DNA of 64,000 nucleotides. It comes from Clostridium sp. UBA701 (GTDB lineage: Bacteria > Bacillota > Clostridia > Clostridiales > Clostridiaceae). The stretch lies in assembly GCA_002298125.1 (NCBI GenBank), contig DBMJ01000016.1:1-64000 (forward strand), written 5' to 3'. A model generated the notes under the pieces. It made no database searches and was not told where the DNA came from. It was given only the letters and a program-made list of their open reading frames with translations. This document shows, one piece after another, positions 52,001 through 61,310 of the stretch; positions within the stretch are counted from its first letter, which is position 1; each line of letters opens with the position of its first letter. Position numbers and translations under genes: made by a program.

Positions 52001-52326
52001 TTTATGAAATGGATGGAAAACTTGTGGCGGTTATTACGGATTATAAGAGTAACAACCTAAGAGATAGAGAGGAAGCAGAAATCACTGCTAAAAAATATCT
52101 TCCACAGATGCTCTTATACGGCCTTGCAGTTAAGACACTGTTTTCACATAAGGGAAGAAGTGTGGATGAGATTATTCTGCAGCTTTATTTCTTGAAGCCT
52201 GGAGAGGAAATTAAATTGAATTTTGATGAAAAAGAAGCACTGGTGCTGGTTGATGAGATGGATAGGATATTTAAGTCCATGGCGTTAAATAAGATAGAGG
52301 ATTTACAAGTGACAAGTGACAAGTGA
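49069..52326 (+). CDS. rexA: helicase-nuclease subunit A, RexA/AddA type (UvrD-like SF1 helicase + C-terminal PD-(D/E)xK nuclease)
   Basis: Start at ATG 49069 with GGGGAGGG RBS (ORF track extends to 48997); Walker A AGAGSGKTRVL, UvrD motifs, C-terminal GAIDRL..ITDYK nuclease motif; the stop codon lies inside the heptamer repeat. Confidence 0.85.
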   Translation: MAFPLNDEQLQALNIEENISLSAGAGSGKTRVLTERYIKLLEEDSEADILNIVAITFTNKAALEMKDRVRKAILVKLEESKSEERKLWQQRLDALSEAHINTIHGFCGEIIREQAEELNISPSYSIIDAVEKELLLREIFTKVVAESLIKEDFKEAVAEMVELYGGEYLQRKGSCNIYKDLHRLREKLLERGQLNKELLKAVQPESMEHFVIYILLKVEERYTKSKREKDLMDFNDMELLCYSAMQIKDIKEYYKNRYKRFLVDEFQDTNELQKKILFSFIEDEDGMPMDKRLFVVGDVKQSIYRFRGADMQVFNRVRAELPENSRKSLHICYRCHPSIVKGVNQIFKKLMAGYEELQSESVEEDKRITLLTYEEEAEEKADIYSGIKELYKTEDEEHMEELKLKLKTFLEDIKNTKPTEAKEGEAVLKAVYHLRNCGLAYRDMAVLVRSRSSLAVLEETFIKYKIPYCIIGGKGFYNKQEVIDILNLYKLSIGDTISNAELISVLRSPLFSISDAALLRGRVEAIEQKDMEFLEALDLASETLEEEKEKINAAIGVIRDLRRESANCSTVQLLKYIYDKTGVWNRYISLEQGLQKYRNLEQLLQCAEEFDNRKLFSPQEFMEYMTLMAEYSKEDGEAALDTEDSEAIKVMTIHASKGLEFKGVIMPSLNKNLLYNINNGKNNFLYQEDNIIAFDRSAKQDEASDFQTGKAQEVEKELQEAVRVFYVAVTRAIEQVVLIAQRDEKLEEKLQNEASLKPEDIYGSYYAQLLYAINSAGDIPGFQSLSIDEVELREEAAKEYYLPQEDIIVPEGVDYNCEVVPRIFSSASSYMSYKRCPLEYYLSRELAFALDFLEDNNGEEEKEAIEEREQSYEGLTAIEKGHIIHSVLEQLAVKPELREEELQEFIIRASEEELGYESYNEDIASEIKPYIDSFVKLEKSSRFSAFTPLSILCEAQYTFAPLEDRKLILTGAIDRLRLYEMDGKLVAVITDYKSNNLRDREEAEITAKKYLPQMLLYGLAVKTLFSHKGRSVDEIILQLYFLKPGEEIKLNFDEKEALVLVDEMDRIFKSMALNKIEDLQVTSDK

Positions 52327-52838
52327 CAAGTGGCAAGTGGCAAGTGGCAAGTGACAAGTGGCAAGTGACAAGGGAGAAGGGACAAGTTACAAGTGACAAG
52401 TTAAAAGTGAAGAAGTGACAAGTTACAAGTGAAGAGGGAAGAGGGACAAGGGACAAGTGAGAAAGTGACAAGTGGGAAAGTGACAAGTGACAAGTTACAA
52501 GTGAAGAAGTGAAGAAGTGGAGAAGTGGCAAGTGACAAGTGACAAGTGAAGAGTGAAGAGTGAAGAAGTAAGAAGTTATGAAGTGACAAGTGACAAGTGA
52601 CAAGTGACAAGTGACAAGTTATGAAGTGACAAGTGACAAGTGACAAGTGGCAAGTGACAAGTGAGAAAGTGACAAGTGACAAGTGACAAGTGGCAAGTTG
52701 CAAGTTGCAAGTTAAAAGTGAAGAAGTGAAGAAGTGAAGAAGTGAAGAAGTAAGAAGTAAGAGGTAAGAAGGAAGAGGGAAAAGTTAAGAGGGAAAAGTT
52801 AAGAGGGAAAAGTTAATAGTTAAAAGTGACAAGTTGTG
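52305..52838. repeat. ~530-bp microsatellite of heptamer/octamer units (GACAAGT, GGCAAGT, GAAGAAGT, GAAGAGT, GGGAAAAGTTAAGAG x3), ~75 units
   Basis: seen directly: long runs gacaagtgacaagtgacaagt..., gaagaagtgaagaagt...; plus strand is almost devoid of C; minus strand open in all frames. Confidence 0.9.
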
Positions 52839-53153
52839 GGTTGTGCAAATAATTTTGTGTATTCTATTTCTATTGGCAAATAATTAGGATATCAAATTGT
52901 TTGACCGTAATGTTAAATTTTGTCGATAAATCTTTAGCTGCATCATTAATATTATAGTAGATTATTCTTACTGCTTAAGTTAATATACAACATCTTTACC
53001 ATTAACAGGATAGGCCAATGCTGAGGAGCAACCTGAGCGGTTACTGGAGTTCTCTGAATAGGAACGGATGGTCTTTTGATCATCCTTTTCTCGTTCCTGG
53101 GAGAACTAAAGCGATAAACCTCTGGGGTTTGGGGACAGAGTCCCCAAGTTATG

Positions 53154-53472
53154 CCTACTTTCTTAAGATATCTTCAAATAGGATATTGAGTTGACTTACT
53201 ACAAGATCCCAGTTTGAACACACTCTACTCCACTTGTTGCTAATCTTTTCAGTAGATAGATATAGCATCTTCATAAGACTCTCGTCATTAGGGAATATAA
53301 GCTTTGTCTTAGTAACCTTTCTAAATTGGCTATTAAGGCCTTCTATAGCATTTGTGGTATTATCCCGATATCGGTATAGTTATTTTTTTGGCATTAGAGG
53401 TATACATAATCGTACGAATATATTCACAATGGAGAATACTACCATAGAATTCTTGAGGAAAAGGTTTAGTAT
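53154..53472 (-). pseudogene. IS256-family transposase, 3'-terminal remnant (~105 codons, one frameshift)
   Basis: Minus-strand translation gives EYIRTIMYTSNAKK / YRYRDNTTNAIEGLNSQFRKVTKTKLIFPNDESLMKMLYLSTEKISNKWSRVCSNWDLVVSQLNILFEDILRK*, matching the conserved IS256 C-terminus (IYTTNAIE.LN..R...K....FP...L.K.LYL.....KW....W) as recalled; no N-terminal DDE region, no inverted repeats. Confidence 0.7.
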
Positions 53473-53482
53473 AAAGTAAAGG

Positions 53483-53592
53483 GCCTGTTTAGAGGATTTG
53501 CTCGCTAAACAGGCTCTGTTCTTTAACAGGCCATGCTCTCTAAACAAGCTCTGCACTCTAAACAAGCTCTGCTCTCTAAACAGGCACTGCTA
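53483..53592. repeat. 3' UTR element: three perfect + two degenerate 18-bp direct repeats (CTCTAAACAAGCTCTGCW) and a 10-bp-stem hairpin (GCCTGTTTAG/CTAAACAGGC)
   Basis: seen directly at 53538-53591 (3x18 bp) and 53483-53514 (hairpin); lies immediately 3' of the minus-strand small-protein gene stop, so the hairpin probably acts as its terminator. Confidence 0.6.
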
Positions 53593-57099: not shown

Positions 57100-57599
57100 A
57101 AGTAGGATGCCTTTTCAATTTATCCCAACAATTAAACCATTGACACCTTCTGCCTTATATATCTTTAGCCAACTTTAATTAGCTTCTCCGTATGTTTAAA
57201 CAACACTATTTTCGTATTTTAAGGATGTGAGGTGCAATATCAATTTCTAGAAGATGTTGTATAATGCCCCAAAATAATGCTCAATAAATAGTAAGAATAT
57301 TATGAATAGTAATTGTAAATATTTGTCTTATACGTTATTATTAGCATAAGAGAATGCGAAGGAGTTGATTAAATGTAACTCATTTTGCAAGGAAAACAGG
57401 AACGAATACAATTGAATCAAAATGGGGAAGTTATGAGGCAGTCAAAAACAATTGTATAGGAACGTTTGATGCATTTCTTACTGCTGATTATGGAAAGCCT
57501 TTAGCATATTTCAAATTTCAATAATATCATGTAATAGAGTTTCAAAATTAAAAGGATGAATTTTTATATTTACGAAAATTATTATGAGGAGGTTAGTAT

Positions 57600-57758
57600 A
57601 TGATAAAAAAGTTAAATTTGAAAGTTGTTCTGATTACCTTTTCTATTATAACGTTAGGTATATTTGCAGGCTTCAAATATACTCAAACCTTAGCCTCAAG
57701 AAATATTGATAATGAAATGAAGAGTTTAGTTAATAAAAAAAGGTACAGGCATGGATAA
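57600..57758 (+). CDS. N-terminal signal-peptide segment (52 aa) of a gene interrupted at a poly-A(7) tract
   Basis: GAGGAGG RBS 7 nt upstream; MIKKLNLKVVLITFSIITLGIFAGFK signal/TM; frame ends 5 codons after A7 at 57735-57741. Confidence 0.35.
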   Translation: MIKKLNLKVVLITFSIITLGIFAGFKYTQTLASRNIDNEMKSLVNKKRYRHG

Positions 57759-57787
57759 CCTATTATGAAAGTAATGATAGAATATTA

Positions 57788-58348
57788 ATGTCTAGTAATC
57801 CATATGCCTATTTGCAAAATGAAAAATTTGAAGAGATTAAAAATTTAGGGCCAGAGTACATGCCATATATTTTAAAGGAAATAGGTGAGAATCCAGCTGC
57901 AGTGTTTGCATTATGGGAAATAAAAGATATTTCTAAAGCTTATAACTTACCCAAATGGGACAGTGATGACCAGTGTGTTAGCATTTGGAATCAATATGTG
58001 GAGAATTTTCCAGAGGAGTTTAACAAATTAAAAAAAGAGTTGTATTCTGAAACTGATACCGAAAAAATCAAATTAAAGTCTCAAGAAATAAAGGATTTAG
58101 GATATTTAGCTTTACCATTTATTGTAGAAGAAAACAATGAAAGGATGGATACAATAGCGAAACAATTATTTAGAGATAATATTAATCAAGTATCATATTC
58201 TGAATCTAACATGAATAGCTCTGAAAGTGAAAATACAACTATAGAGGAAAAAATAGATTCTAAACTTAAAAATTACAAAGCATTGGTGGAACTCAATAAA
58301 AATGTAAGCAGTTTAAATAAATTCAAAATAAATATAAAGTATAAGTAA
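57788..58348 (+). CDS. hypothetical protein (C-terminal segment; +1 frame relative to 57600 ORF)
   Basis: 186 aa ORF; its frame is open back to the stop at 57734-57736, i.e. into the A-tract, so one extra A would fuse it to the signal-peptide ORF. Confidence 0.5.
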   Translation: MSSNPYAYLQNEKFEEIKNLGPEYMPYILKEIGENPAAVFALWEIKDISKAYNLPKWDSDDQCVSIWNQYVENFPEEFNKLKKELYSETDTEKIKLKSQEIKDLGYLALPFIVEENNERMDTIAKQLFRDNINQVSYSESNMNSSESENTTIEEKIDSKLKNYKALVELNKNVSSLNKFKINIKYK

Positions 58349-58452
58349 ATTCAATATATAATAGTGAGTCAAATATAAAGTATTTTATAATATTTAAAAA
58401 ATGTGCAAGGGACTGGCAACTAACTGAATTAATAGTTGCCAGTCCCTTGTTT

Positions 58453-61008
58453 TTACATTAAATGAGTTTTTATTACTTCCTCCTTGGAGGCTTGTTTTTC
58501 AATATTGTTTACTACCTTTACAGAGTCATTAGTGCTGCCAAGGAGAATTCCACCCACCAGCCTTCTGTTTTTTAAGAATAGCTTTTTATATTGAAGCTTT
58601 CCAGCGGTCTTATAGCCAAGCTCCTCAAAGCTTTCATCCTTTGCACACACATCTCCTGCAGAGAACAGATTGATATTTAGTGCATTAAACATTATGGAGG
58701 AAACAAAATCTGCAAATTCCTTTTCATCTCCTACGGCCGCTGCTCCTGCTACCTTGCCCATCTCTGTAGCTGCAGGCCAGTTTCCAAATACCCTTCCATT
58801 ATATTCAGCCACATCTCCGCAGGCATATATATTAGGTATATTGGTCTCCATTTTCTTATTGACTATTATTCCCCTATTTACTGCTATTCCTGCATTTTCT
58901 GCCAGGGCTTTATTAGGACGAATGCCCACAGATAAAAGCACCATATCTCCCTGAAGTACCTTTCCGCTCTTTAATCTTACTCCGCTTACAGAGTCTTCTC
59001 CAAGGATTTCTTCCACAGCCTCGTTAAGGTATATGTCTACACCACAGCTGTCTATGAAAGGCTTTGCCAGAGAAGAACCCTCATCATCAAGCTGCATAGG
59101 CAAAAGTCTAGGAGCAAGCTCCACTACAGAAACCTTAATACCAAGCTTTTTCATCTCCCAAGCTGCCTCTAAACCCAGCACTCCACCGCCAATTATTACT
59201 GCACTCTTGCTTTCCTCTAGTGCAGTCTTTATTTTAGTTGCATCCTCAAAGGTTCTAAGTACAAATACATTTTTGTGCTCTGCACCCTTTATAGGTGGAA
59301 CAAAGGCACTGCTGCCATTTGCCAAAATAAGCTTGTCATAGGATATCTCCATACCATTATTAAGCACTAAAAGCTTATTTTCTGGTTTTAGCTCTTTTAC
59401 AACAACTCCAAGGGTAAGAGTAATATTATTTTCACTATACCAGTTTTTGTTTACTAGATAGAAATCTCTTTCTGGAATTTCTGAGCTTAAATAATCAGAA
59501 AGCTGAGGCTTGTAGTAGGTAAGCTCACTCTCAGAGGAGATAATCTCTATATCTGCTGCAGAGTTTCTCTTTCTTATGGCATCTGCTGCATAAAAGCCTG
59601 CAGCACCATTACCTATTATTATAAACTTTTCTTTTTTGTCACTGTGGAAGCTTATTATTTCCTCAGATACCTCTACAAATTGGTCTGAGCCTGCACCACA
59701 TGCTGGACAAACCTCTGGAGGAACCTCTCCTTCTAATATAAGCCCGCATACTATGCATTTCCACTTCTTTTTAGGCTTTTTATCTGCCTTTTCTGAGCTC
59801 TTATTTAGTTTTAATAGCAGCTCCTCCCCAAAGCCTTTCCCAAAGCTTACACACTGCTTAAGCTCCTCATAAGAAGGCTTAAAGTTTATTTTTAAACCCG
59901 GTATTAGCTTCATTCTAAGCTCTTTTAGCCTATTAATAATATTATCCACAGCTTCTCCACTCCAGCCATAGGAACCAAAGGCTGAGCAAAGCTTATCACC
60001 ATGGACTATAGGGCTTAAGCTTATGAGTAAATCCATCACAGGTAAAAGAGCATCACTGTTTATGGTAGGAGAACCAAAAATAATGCCGTCAGCATTTAAC
60101 ATATCCCCTAGAATATCCTCTTTTTTCTCTTTAATAATATCGTAGAGGTGAATTTCAAAGGGGTGGACTTCTTTTAAGCCCTCTGCTATCTTCATGGCCA
60201 TGCTCTCTGTATAGCCATAGGCAGATACATAGGGGATTACTATTTTGGGTTCAGGGTTCTTTTCTAAGGGTTCACTCCACTGTCTGTAAAGCTCTACTAT
60301 CTTCCAGGGGTCCTGTCTTAAAATAGGTCCGTGACCAGGGCAGATTATTTCTATATCAAGGTTTTTTATCTTATCGTAAGCCCTTAATAGGTGAGGCTTA
60401 AAGGGAGATATTATCATGTCATAGTAATATCTAAGGGCAGTGTTATAATCCTCAATATTTGGAATGAGGTCATTATACATCTCCTCAAAGCAGTAGTGAC
60501 TGCCGAAGGAATCACAGGTTAATAGAAGCTTATCCTCCTCCACATAGGTGTAGATGGAATCTGGCCAATGTAAAAAGGGTGCATTGATAAACTTTAAGGT
60601 CTTATCACCAAGGGATAAGGTATCCCCATCTTTTACAGTAATGGCCTCAAAGCTTCTGTTGGCAATGGCTTTTAGAAATTGTATTGCCATGGCAGATCCC
60701 ACTACCTTAGCCTTTGGAGCTAGTTCTAGAAGCTTTGCCACGGAACCTGCATGGTCAGGCTCTGTATGGTCTACTACAATGTAGTCTATACTGCTTATAT
60801 CAATATCAAGGGATTGAAGCCTTTCTAGATATTCAGGGAAAAATTTTTCCTTTACGGTTTCAAAGATAGCAGTTTTTTGCGAACCCTTTACTACATAAGA
60901 ATTGTAGGTAGTACCAAAGGGTGTGTACATGATTATATCAAACACTCTCAGGTTAAAGTCCTGGGCCCCGACCCAATAAATATCCTTTTTAATCTCTAAG
61001 GATTTCAT
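58453..61008 (-). CDS. multidomain flavodiiron protein: metallo-beta-lactamase-like diiron + flavodoxin + rubredoxin + NAD(P)H:rubredoxin oxidoreductase (class-F-type FDP fusion)
   Basis: H.E.DH diiron motif ([11 protein letters not shown]), flavodoxin segment, rubredoxin CxxC...CPxC (CIVCG...CPACG), two Rossmann GxGxxG motifs; start set at third ATG (MKSLEIKK) with GGAGGAG RBS. Confidence 0.85.
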
Positions 61009-61310
61009 CATATCTCCTCCATACATATGTTAATAAATTATTAATAAATAACAATTGTCCGTTATTTTTATTATAATACAGCTTAGCTCATACTTCAATT
61101 CTTTAGTAGTATTACTATTAGCTCATAATTCAATTATTTAGTAGTATTACTATTAGCGCATAATTCAAATATTTATTAGTATTACTATATGTAAAATCAT
61201 CTTACCTTATATTTCCCGTTATAAAAGTAAAAAAATTCATACTACTTCACAATTTTAGTGTTATAATTTTACCATAATGCATAATTAAAACCCGCGGGGA
61301 GGAATTAACT

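What the first reader, a model, noticed from the sequence alone, without database searches (positions are those of the whole stretch)
57600..58348. Signal-peptide gene split by a poly-A(7) tract; +1 A restores a ~240-aa secreted protein
The ORF starting at 57600 (strong GAGGAGG RBS; MIKKLNLKVVLITFSIITLGIFAGFK signal/anchor) terminates 5 codons after an A7 run at 57735-57741. The downstream 186-aa ORF (57788-58348) is open in the +1 frame right back into the A-tract. An A7 to A8 slip would fuse the two into one exported protein. This is either a recent pseudogenisation, a slipped-strand phase-variable surface/secreted protein, or programmed +1 frameshifting.
Basis: seen in the sequence. Interest (0 to 1): 0.6.

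Follow-up and report, generated by a model that had tools for sequence, protein, structure and literature searches.

The report
Frameshifted remnant of an exported-protein gene
The split gene is real, but it is an ordinary strain-specific pseudogene: two extra A's (A5 to A7) broke an exported helical protein whose neighbouring partner gene had already been deleted, so this is gene decay and not a switch or programmed frameshift.

Summary
ATG 57600 has a GAGGAGG ribosome-binding site. An A7 run lies at 57735-57741 and a stop at 57756-58. The 186-aa ORF's frame is open back into the tract, and one added A gives a 249-aa fusion.

The natural intact state is A5, not A8. Two near-identical alleles from other samples (L001, and the syntenic L090) read AAT-AAA-AAG-GTA and encode 248 aa. 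All other full-length homologues are also uninterrupted there. The window therefore carries a lineage-specific +2 insertion.

The gene is the second half of a two-gene exported cassette. In L090 an intact 263-aa secreted DUF7689 protein sits directly upstream. In the window and in L001, a 640-bp deletion between AATG microhomologies removed it. What remains is ATG-TAA and an out-of-frame 48-codon tail (57375-57521).

Best reading: stepwise decay, with the partner deleted first and this gene then frameshifted. Phase variation and programmed frameshifting are not supported. The tract is short and not conserved, and a ribosome would need a -1 shift, not +1. Assembly error cannot be excluded without reads but looks unlikely. 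Low-level rescue by A7-to-A8 transcript slippage remains possible. Interest is low.

The parts
57586..57592 (+). Shine-Dalgarno sequence GAGGAGG, 7 nt upstream of the start codon
   Evidence: Read directly; identical in L001.
57600..58348 (+). Whole pseudogene: an exported all-alpha (HEAT/ARM-like) protein of an uncharacterised family, interrupted by a +2 frameshift
   Evidence: The fused translation matches P0001 (248 aa) at 96% identity over 100% coverage, E 6e-149. There is no Pfam or NCBIfam match.
57600..57758 (+). 5' fragment (ORF1, 52 aa). It carries an N-terminal signal peptide or anchor: n-region MIKKLNLK, h-region VVLITFSIITLGIFAGF, then TLA-S. It ends with 5 out-of-frame codons and TAA.
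   Evidence: An N-terminal hydrophobic signal is conserved across 40 family members. Homologues in L002 and L003 have lipoboxes LLCAC and LLSAC.
57735..57741 (+). A7 homopolymer. Two of the seven A's are an insertion relative to the ancestral A5 (AAT AAA AAG GTA).
   Evidence: Pairwise DNA alignment with L001 shows a 2-nt gap exactly here. L090 also has A5. Other homologues read CAAAAGG, CAAAAGA, CAAAAAG or CAAAAAATA, all in frame.
57740..58348 (+). 3' continuation of the ancestral reading frame (K-V-Q-A-W-I-T-Y-Y... to TAA). The mechanically listed ORF2 starts at ATG 57788. No SD lies before that ATG and ORF2 has no signal peptide.
   Evidence: The sequence upstream of 57788 (AGTAATGATAGAATATTA) has no GGAGG-like motif.
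57372..57378 (+). Deletion junction. The AATG microhomology lies at 57372-75. The surviving DUF7689 start codon ATG (57373-75) is now followed directly by TAA.
   Evidence: blastn against L090 gives L090 4102-4368 = window 57109-57375 and L090 5005-7053 = window 57372-59419. Junction sequences are; 640 bp are missing. L001 has the same junction.
57375..57524 (+). Relic of the upstream partner gene: the C-terminal 48 codons plus stop of a secreted DUF7689 (PF24738) protein. It is out of frame with the surviving ATG.
   Evidence: tblastn gives 79% identity, E 3e-21, to the DUF7689 gene upstream of homologue P0008. The Pfam hit is 24.9 bits against a GA of 22.6, model positions 75-118 of 118. An intact 263-aa version sits at the same position in L090.
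57744..57797 (+). Moderately stable RNA hairpin starting 3 nt after the A tract. It is probably incidental.
   Evidence: Folding energy is -16.2 kcal/mol, z -1.85 for 70 nt and -2.97 for 101 nt. The same sequence is present in the in-frame allele L001.
58405..58455 (.). Strong bidirectional intrinsic terminator: an 18-bp perfect stem with A-run and T-run flanks. It lies between this gene and the convergent 857-aa gene.
   Evidence: Folding energy is -34.3 kcal/mol, z -8.8.

Best explanation
The locus is the decaying remnant of a two-gene cassette that encoded two exported proteins. The first was a secreted DUF7689 protein: signal peptide, an N-terminal domain, and a C-terminal domain with invariant Asn-Cys and His-Phe motifs. 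The second was a roughly 248-aa signal-anchored (lipoprotein in some relatives) all-helical, HEAT/ARM-like partner.

In the lineage of this genome, a 640-bp deletion between two AATG microhomologies first removed almost all of the DUF7689 gene. That event is shared with the strain behind L001.

Later, and only in this genome's lineage, replication slippage added two A's to an A5 run in codons 45-47 of the partner gene. It cannot be told whether this was one +2 event or two successive +1 events. The insertion moves the ribosome out of frame and translation stops after 52 residues. The remaining 203 codons have no ribosome-binding site and no export signal of their own, so no functional exported protein is expected.

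Shown: the +2 lesion, its lineage specificity, the intact ancestral architecture, the shared upstream deletion, and the synteny.

Inferred: that the lesion is real in the DNA rather than in the assembly; the order 'partner lost, then relaxed selection, then frameshift'; and that the two proteins work together outside the cell.
For: 1. Intact A5 alleles exist in two independent samples. L001 has a 2-nt gap as its only indel in 1081 aligned nt. L090 reads ...GTTAATAAAAAGGTACAGG....

2. L090 is syntenic with the window: nagA-gntR-nagB-[DUF7689 263 aa]-[target 248 aa]-convergent 857-aa gene, at 92-96% nt identity. Being the more divergent allele, it serves as an outgroup showing that A5 is ancestral.

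3. All 10 other homologues, and 40 aligned members of the wider family, are single ORFs with the N-terminal signal.

4. The upstream gene relic and a clean deletion junction are shared with L001.

5. DUF7689 and this domain are linked in other genomes. DUF7689 is adjacent at the P0008 locus (L086). The two are fused in P0034, P0039 and P0052.

6. pN/pS for the gene is 0.18-0.19 against L090. It is 0.49 (9 non-synonymous, 4 synonymous) between the two alleles that have lost the partner. This fits relaxed constraint, although the counts are small.

7. The assembly does not look error-prone. 22 other A/T runs of 7 or more lie inside uninterrupted long ORFs, and no other split gene was found in 64 kb.

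8. The exact 186-aa ORF2 product is on record from NCBI, JGI/IMG, Logan and GEM.
Against: No reads were available, so a consensus error at the homopolymer cannot be formally excluded.

The pN/pS contrast rests on 13 substitutions and is not statistically meaningful.

L001 keeps the partner gene intact despite lacking DUF7689, so loss of DUF7689 does not by itself prove the partner became useless.

A small fraction of A8 transcripts, or -1 slips by the ribosome, could still yield some full-length protein.
Confidence: 0.75

Rival explanations
1. Sequencing or assembly artefact: the true genome has A5 (or A8) and the gene is intact.
For: The lesion sits in a homopolymer, the classic site of consensus errors. 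The window's genome could not be retrieved at read level. The exact-product look-ups returned no contig.
Against: The difference from the intact alleles is +2, not the usual +/-1. 22 other runs of 7 or more, including three T8, sit in frame inside long ORFs, and no other gene in 64 kb is split. The identical 186-aa truncated product is listed from four sources, including Logan's independent assemblies.
Confidence: 0.1
2. Slipped-strand phase variation: the tract toggles expression of a surface or exported protein on and off.
For: The product is exported. The tract lies early in the ORF. Two tract lengths (A5 and A7) exist among close strains.
Against: A5 to A7 is shorter than usual contingency tracts (general knowledge; typically 8 or more). 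The ON and OFF states seen differ by 2 nt, not 1. No A6 or A8 allele was found. The tract is not conserved in the family: A4-A6, preceded by C where this lineage has A, so the run is shorter. A second A7 in the same gene (58030-58036) is stable and in frame in both alleles. The cassette is otherwise decaying, given the 640-bp deletion.
Confidence: 0.05
3. Recoding or leaky rescue: a -1 ribosomal slip on AAA-AAA-A, or RNA-polymerase slippage producing A8 transcripts, yields a functional amount of the 249-aa protein.
For: One extra A in the mRNA, or a -1 slip, restores the frame. Single-A insertions by RNA polymerase occur in A/T runs and rise exponentially with run length (PMC5574713). AGG follows the tract as a possibly slow codon. 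A hairpin starts 3 nt downstream.
Against: The layout is not conserved: every homologue is a single ORF. Runs used for productive slippage are 9, rarely 8 (PMC1088944). In frame 0 the site is T-AAA-AAA, not X-XXY-YYZ. The hairpin is too close at 3 nt and is equally present in the in-frame alleles. The rescued product would carry an extra Lys that no family member has.
Confidence: 0.07
4. Two genuine separate genes: a 52-aa membrane peptide and a 186-aa cytoplasmic protein.
For: Both ORFs have ATG starts. Public annotation lists the 186-aa product.
Against: Homology runs straight across the junction in every relative. ORF2 has no SD. The last 5 codons of ORF1 (RYRHG) have no counterpart in any homologue.
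Confidence: 0.03

Closest known systems
Homopolymer-slippage frameshift pseudogenes in bacterial accessory genes
   Same: A short A run in a coding region gained bases. The result is a premature stop, intact orthologues in sister strains, and a neighbouring gene also degraded.
   Different: The change is +2 rather than the commoner +/-1. The gene family itself is undescribed.
Contingency loci / phase-variable surface proteins with poly-A, poly-G or poly-C tracts (e.g. Neisseria, Campylobacter, Haemophilus)
   Same: A homopolymer lies near the 5' end of a gene for an exported protein, and the tract length sets the reading frame.
   Different: The tract here is short (A5 or A7) and not conserved. 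The ON and OFF alleles differ by 2 nt. No intermediate lengths were seen.
Transcriptional-slippage or -1 frameshift recoding sites (Thermus dnaX A9, Shigella mxiE, IS element A9/A8 runs; PMC1088944)
   Same: An A run lies at the overlap of two frames, where one extra A in the mRNA joins them.
   Different: Those sites are 8-9 or more nt long and are conserved together with the two-ORF layout. Here the run is A7 and unique to one genome.
DUF7689 (PF24738) proteins
   Same: The upstream relic matches the C-terminal third of the model above the gathering score. The intact L090 orthologue matches model positions 2-118.
   Different: Only 48 codons survive in the window. No function has been published for the family (no paper found).
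HEAT/ARM/TOG/VHS-type alpha-solenoid repeat proteins

Membership tests
Lineage-specific frameshift pseudogene | Close orthologues encode one uninterrupted ORF across the break | tested here: met
   L001 and L090 encode 248 aa with A5. Ten more homologues are in frame.
Lineage-specific frameshift pseudogene | The lesion is derived, not ancestral | tested here: met
   The outgroup allele L090 and all distant homologues lack the extra bases.
Lineage-specific frameshift pseudogene | The lesion is present in the DNA (reads), not only in the consensus | not testable with these tools
   No reads were available.
Phase-variable contingency locus (slipped-strand mispairing) | A long hypermutable repeat conserved at the site among strains | tested here: not met
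   The relatives carry A5, and other homologues have shorter, non-conserved A4-A6 runs.
Phase-variable contingency locus (slipped-strand mispairing) | Tract-length polymorphism that toggles the frame by single-unit steps | tested here: inconclusive
   Only three alleles were seen (A5, A5, A7). They differ by 2, with no A6 or A8. Within-culture heterogeneity is untestable here.
Phase-variable contingency locus (slipped-strand mispairing) | The product is surface-exposed or secreted | tested here: met
   The N-terminal signal or anchor is conserved, and some homologues have lipoboxes. This is a sequence reading, not a predictor.
Programmed -1 ribosomal frameshift / productive transcriptional slippage | Two-ORF layout and slippery run conserved among homologues | tested here: not met
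Programmed -1 ribosomal frameshift / productive transcriptional slippage | Canonical X XXY YYZ heptamer in frame 0, or an A/T run of 8-9 or more | tested here: not met
   Frame 0 reads AAT AAA AAA AGG, giving T-AAA-AAA, and the run is 7. Thresholds come from PMC1088944.
Programmed -1 ribosomal frameshift / productive transcriptional slippage | Stimulatory RNA structure at the proper spacing | tested here: inconclusive
   There is a hairpin of -16 kcal/mol, z -1.9 to -3.0. It lies only 3 nt downstream and is also present in in-frame alleles.
DUF7689 (PF24738), for the upstream relic | Match to the Pfam model above the gathering threshold | tested here: met
   24.9 bits against 22.6, model positions 75-118 of 118.
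DUF7689 (PF24738), for the upstream relic | Complete domain, including the invariant N-C and H-F motifs | tested here: not met
   The N-terminal part, with NNCLAY, has been removed by the 640-bp deletion.
HEAT/ARM-like alpha-solenoid | Structural match to helical-repeat folds | tested here: inconclusive

The most novel reading that the evidence does not exclude
The A7 allele may not be dead. RNA-polymerase slippage to A8, or -1 ribosomal slippage helped by the adjacent hairpin and the AGG codon, could give low constitutive expression of the exported helical protein. A5/A7 alleles would then act as a population-level dimmer for an orphaned partner (possibly an inhibitor or immunity-like protein) of a secreted DUF7689 enzyme. 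Separately, DUF7689 plus this alpha-solenoid domain may form a previously undescribed extracellular two-component module of Clostridia.
Probability: 0.07. Interest if true: 0.45.

Novelty: new member of a known kind. Interest (0 to 1): 0.15.

Why it matters
For annotation, the 52-aa and 186-aa ORFs should be merged and flagged as one pseudogene. The stretch 57100-57585 should be flagged as holding a deleted DUF7689 gene rather than being intergenic.

Biologically it is a small, clean example of stepwise cassette decay: a microhomology-mediated deletion of one partner followed by a homopolymer frameshift in the other.

The by-product with more value is the link between DUF7689 and an unnamed exported alpha-solenoid family. 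They are adjacent genes in three loci (L090, L086/L087, and the relics in the window and L001). They are fused in three proteins (P0034, P0039, P0052). This gives a testable hint that the two act together outside the cell.

Tried and rejected
- **GTDB species-representative scan for the family:** no confirmed hit. The window's genome is not among those representatives.
- **JGI metagenome scans:** one with the tract pattern and one with the family alignment. Neither gave a hit, so no population-level tract lengths were obtained.
- **Exact-product look-ups** for ORF1, ORF2, NagB and the 857-aa protein: nothing on record, so the source contig and reads were unreachable.
- **Scan with the 857-aa neighbour:** returned only relatives at 60% identity or less (Clostridiaceae such as Desnuesiella, C. 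akagii, C. simiarum, C. arbusti). This gave a rough taxonomic placement but no synteny.
- **Single-sequence AF2 model of the DUF7689 protein:** unusable at pLDDT 42. The idea that it is a papain-like Cys/His hydrolase therefore rests only on the invariant N-C and H-F motifs and is not claimed.
- **Word-index search with the DUF7689 protein:** found only itself.
- **Other apparent ORF overlaps in the window** (ABC ATPase/permease, AddB/AddA, GNAT/MFS): checked as possible further split genes and rejected as separate genes.

Full report
**1. The observation**

- GAGGAGG (57586-57592) lies 7 nt before ATG 57600.
- The ORF encodes MIKKLNLKVVLITFSIITLGIFAGFKYTQTLASRNIDNEMKSLVNKK, runs through an A7 tract (57735-57741), and then reads RYRHG and TAA (57756-57758).
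- The listed 186-aa ORF starts at ATG 57788. Its frame is open back to 57737, inside the tract.
- Adding one A gives a 249-aa protein.

One correction: ORF2 lies at -1 (or +2) relative to ORF1, so a translating ribosome would need a -1 shift, not +1. A7 runs are common in this 38% G+C window (21 A7 and 9 T7).

**2. The split is real and derived**

The fused protein finds 11 homologues among 5.8 billion clusters. The best is P0001, 248 aa, 96% identity, full coverage. In the alignment every homologue has one residue fewer than the A8 reconstruction at the junction (...N-KKVQAW...).

The DNA of P0001 (L001, a Logan contig from DRR438471) is about 98-99% identical to the window over 1.08 kb. The only indel is a 2-nt gap in the tract: L001 has AAT AAA AAG GTA (A5), and the window has A7.

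The 90% cluster of P0001 holds two more members.
- P0108 is 248 aa and intact.
- P0109 is exactly the window's 186-aa ORF2. It is listed from NCBI, JGI/IMG, Logan and GEM on a 794-kb contig.

The contig of P0108 (L090, SRR31637312) is syntenic with the window: nagA-gntR-nagB-X-target-convergent 857-aa gene, at 92-96% nt identity. It also carries A5. L090 is the more divergent allele and all distant homologues are in frame. A5 is therefore ancestral, and the window carries a lineage-specific +2 insertion.

The Q-to-K change (CAA to AAA) that created the A5 run is itself specific to this small clade.

**3. Surroundings: a decaying two-gene cassette**

The 485-bp 'intergenic' stretch upstream is not empty.

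Window 57375-57521 encodes the last 48 residues of a DUF7689 protein. It is 79% identical, E 3e-21, to the gene upstream of homologue P0008. The Pfam hit is 24.9 bits against a gathering score of 22.6, model positions 75-118 of 118.

In L090 'X' is an intact 263-aa DUF7689 protein with its own signal peptide. Comparison of the junctions shows a 640-bp deletion between AATG microhomologies:
- L090 left: ...GGAGTTGATTAAATG|AAAAGT
- L090 right: ...GGAAATAATG|TAACTCATTTTG
- window: ...GGAGTTGATTAAATG|TAACTCATTTTG

The deletion leaves ATG-TAA (57373-57378) and an out-of-frame tail. L001 has the same junction. The deletion therefore predates the split between the window and L001, whereas the A7 lesion is found only in the window.

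**4. What the gene encoded**

A profile search of 1.84 billion representatives finds 96 relatives at E up to 1e-3. Most are about 225 aa. In an alignment of 40 of them, nearly all have an N-terminal signal or anchor and share two motifs, 'SSNPYDYI.N..F..IV.LG..ALP' and 'LG.PAIPYI.D.I..GN'. Two closer homologues have lipoboxes.

No Pfam, NCBIfam or PDB sequence relative exists. The AF2 model is all-helical with pLDDT 74. It gives only weak, generic alpha-solenoid matches.

Three family members are fusions with DUF7689, in both domain orders. DUF7689 is also the immediate upstream gene at the P0008 locus and in L090. The inference is that the two exported proteins act together.

DUF7689 has invariant N-C and H-F motifs, but its fold could not be modelled. 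No enzymatic class is claimed.

**5. Mechanism and rivals**

The best-supported account is stepwise decay: the partner was deleted, and the remaining gene was then frameshifted by replication slippage.

pN/pS is 0.18-0.19 against the DUF7689-positive allele. It is 0.49 between the two DUF7689-negative alleles. The direction fits relaxed constraint, but the counts are too small to be significant.

- **Assembly error** is unlikely but not excluded. The change is +2. 22 other runs of 7 or more sit in frame inside long ORFs, and no other gene in 64 kb is split. The truncated product is on record from several sources.
- **Phase variation** is unsupported. The tract is short and unconserved, the alleles differ by 2 nt, and a second A7 in the same gene (58030-58036) is stable.
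- **Programmed recoding** fails on conservation and on site anatomy. Frame 0 gives T-AAA-AAA, and the run is 7, whereas utilised slippage runs are 9 or occasionally 8 (PMC1088944). The hairpin 3 nt downstream is also present in the in-frame alleles.
- **A trace of A8 transcripts** is plausible, because single-A insertions rise exponentially with run length (PMC5574713). Nothing suggests that such a leak is used.

**6. Verdict**

This is an ordinary, young pseudogene inside a degrading accessory cassette. The phenomenon is known. The gene family and its pairing with DUF7689 are undescribed (no paper found) and are the only mildly new element.

Noticed in passing
window 57372-57524 (and L001 39-188; L090 4366-5157): The 'intergenic' region upstream holds the relic of a secreted DUF7689 gene. 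A 640-bp deletion between AATG microhomologies destroyed it. The intact 263-aa version is present at the same place in L090.
   Followed up: yes
P0034, P0039, P0052; L086 1261-2429; L090 4366-5982: DUF7689 and the unnamed exported helical domain are either adjacent genes or fused in one protein, in both domain orders. This suggests an undescribed extracellular two-component module.
   Followed up: partly
L086 783-1623: The 165-aa and 120-aa overlapping ORFs upstream of homologue P0008 together match the single 263-aa DUF7689 protein of L090. That gene therefore also appears split in that metagenomic contig.
   Followed up: partly
L002 4881-5003; L003 4887-5003: JGI gene calls for homologues P0002 and P0003 start at the conserved Met40. 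The upstream in-frame sequence encodes a lipoprotein signal. L003 has a GTG start with an SD. L002 has ATT/ATA where relatives have ATG, next to an A7 run, so its start codon may be mutated.
   Followed up: partly
P0011 (167 aa homologue): Its C-terminus diverges abruptly after an A-rich stretch (…DAEKNKNKNSRDC…). This looks like another frameshift in this family, or a low-quality contig.
   Followed up: no
window 58030-58036: A second A7 run lies inside the same gene. It is in frame and identical in L001, which makes it a useful internal control for tract stability.
   Followed up: yes
window 52305-52830: A large tandem array of a 7-nt unit (ACAAGTG, about 58 copies, with a 43-nt higher-order period) is followed by AAGTGAAG-type repeats. 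It lies just after the addA-like gene and gives spurious 'SLVTCHL' ORFs on the minus strand.
   Followed up: no
window 53499-53591: An 18-nt tandem repeat (TGCTCTCTAAACAGGCTC, about 5 copies) lies in a roughly 1-kb stretch (52600-53590) without a convincing gene.
   Followed up: no
window 58453-61026 (-): An 857-aa single-chain fusion combines a flavodiiron core (ODP/metallo-beta-lactamase plus flavodoxin), rubredoxin and an NAD(P)H:rubredoxin oxidoreductase. The best GTDB species-representative matches are only 57-60% identical. The organism is therefore a Clostridiaceae without a close representative in that collection.
   Followed up: partly
L084 1028-3918; L088 596-2187: Some homologues of the target sit near polymorphic-toxin-type genes: Toxin-deaminase plus Imm3, SUKH/SMI1, Peptidase_M23 and VanZ. 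This hints at an accessory, conflict-related neighbourhood. It is not seen in the window.
   Followed up: no
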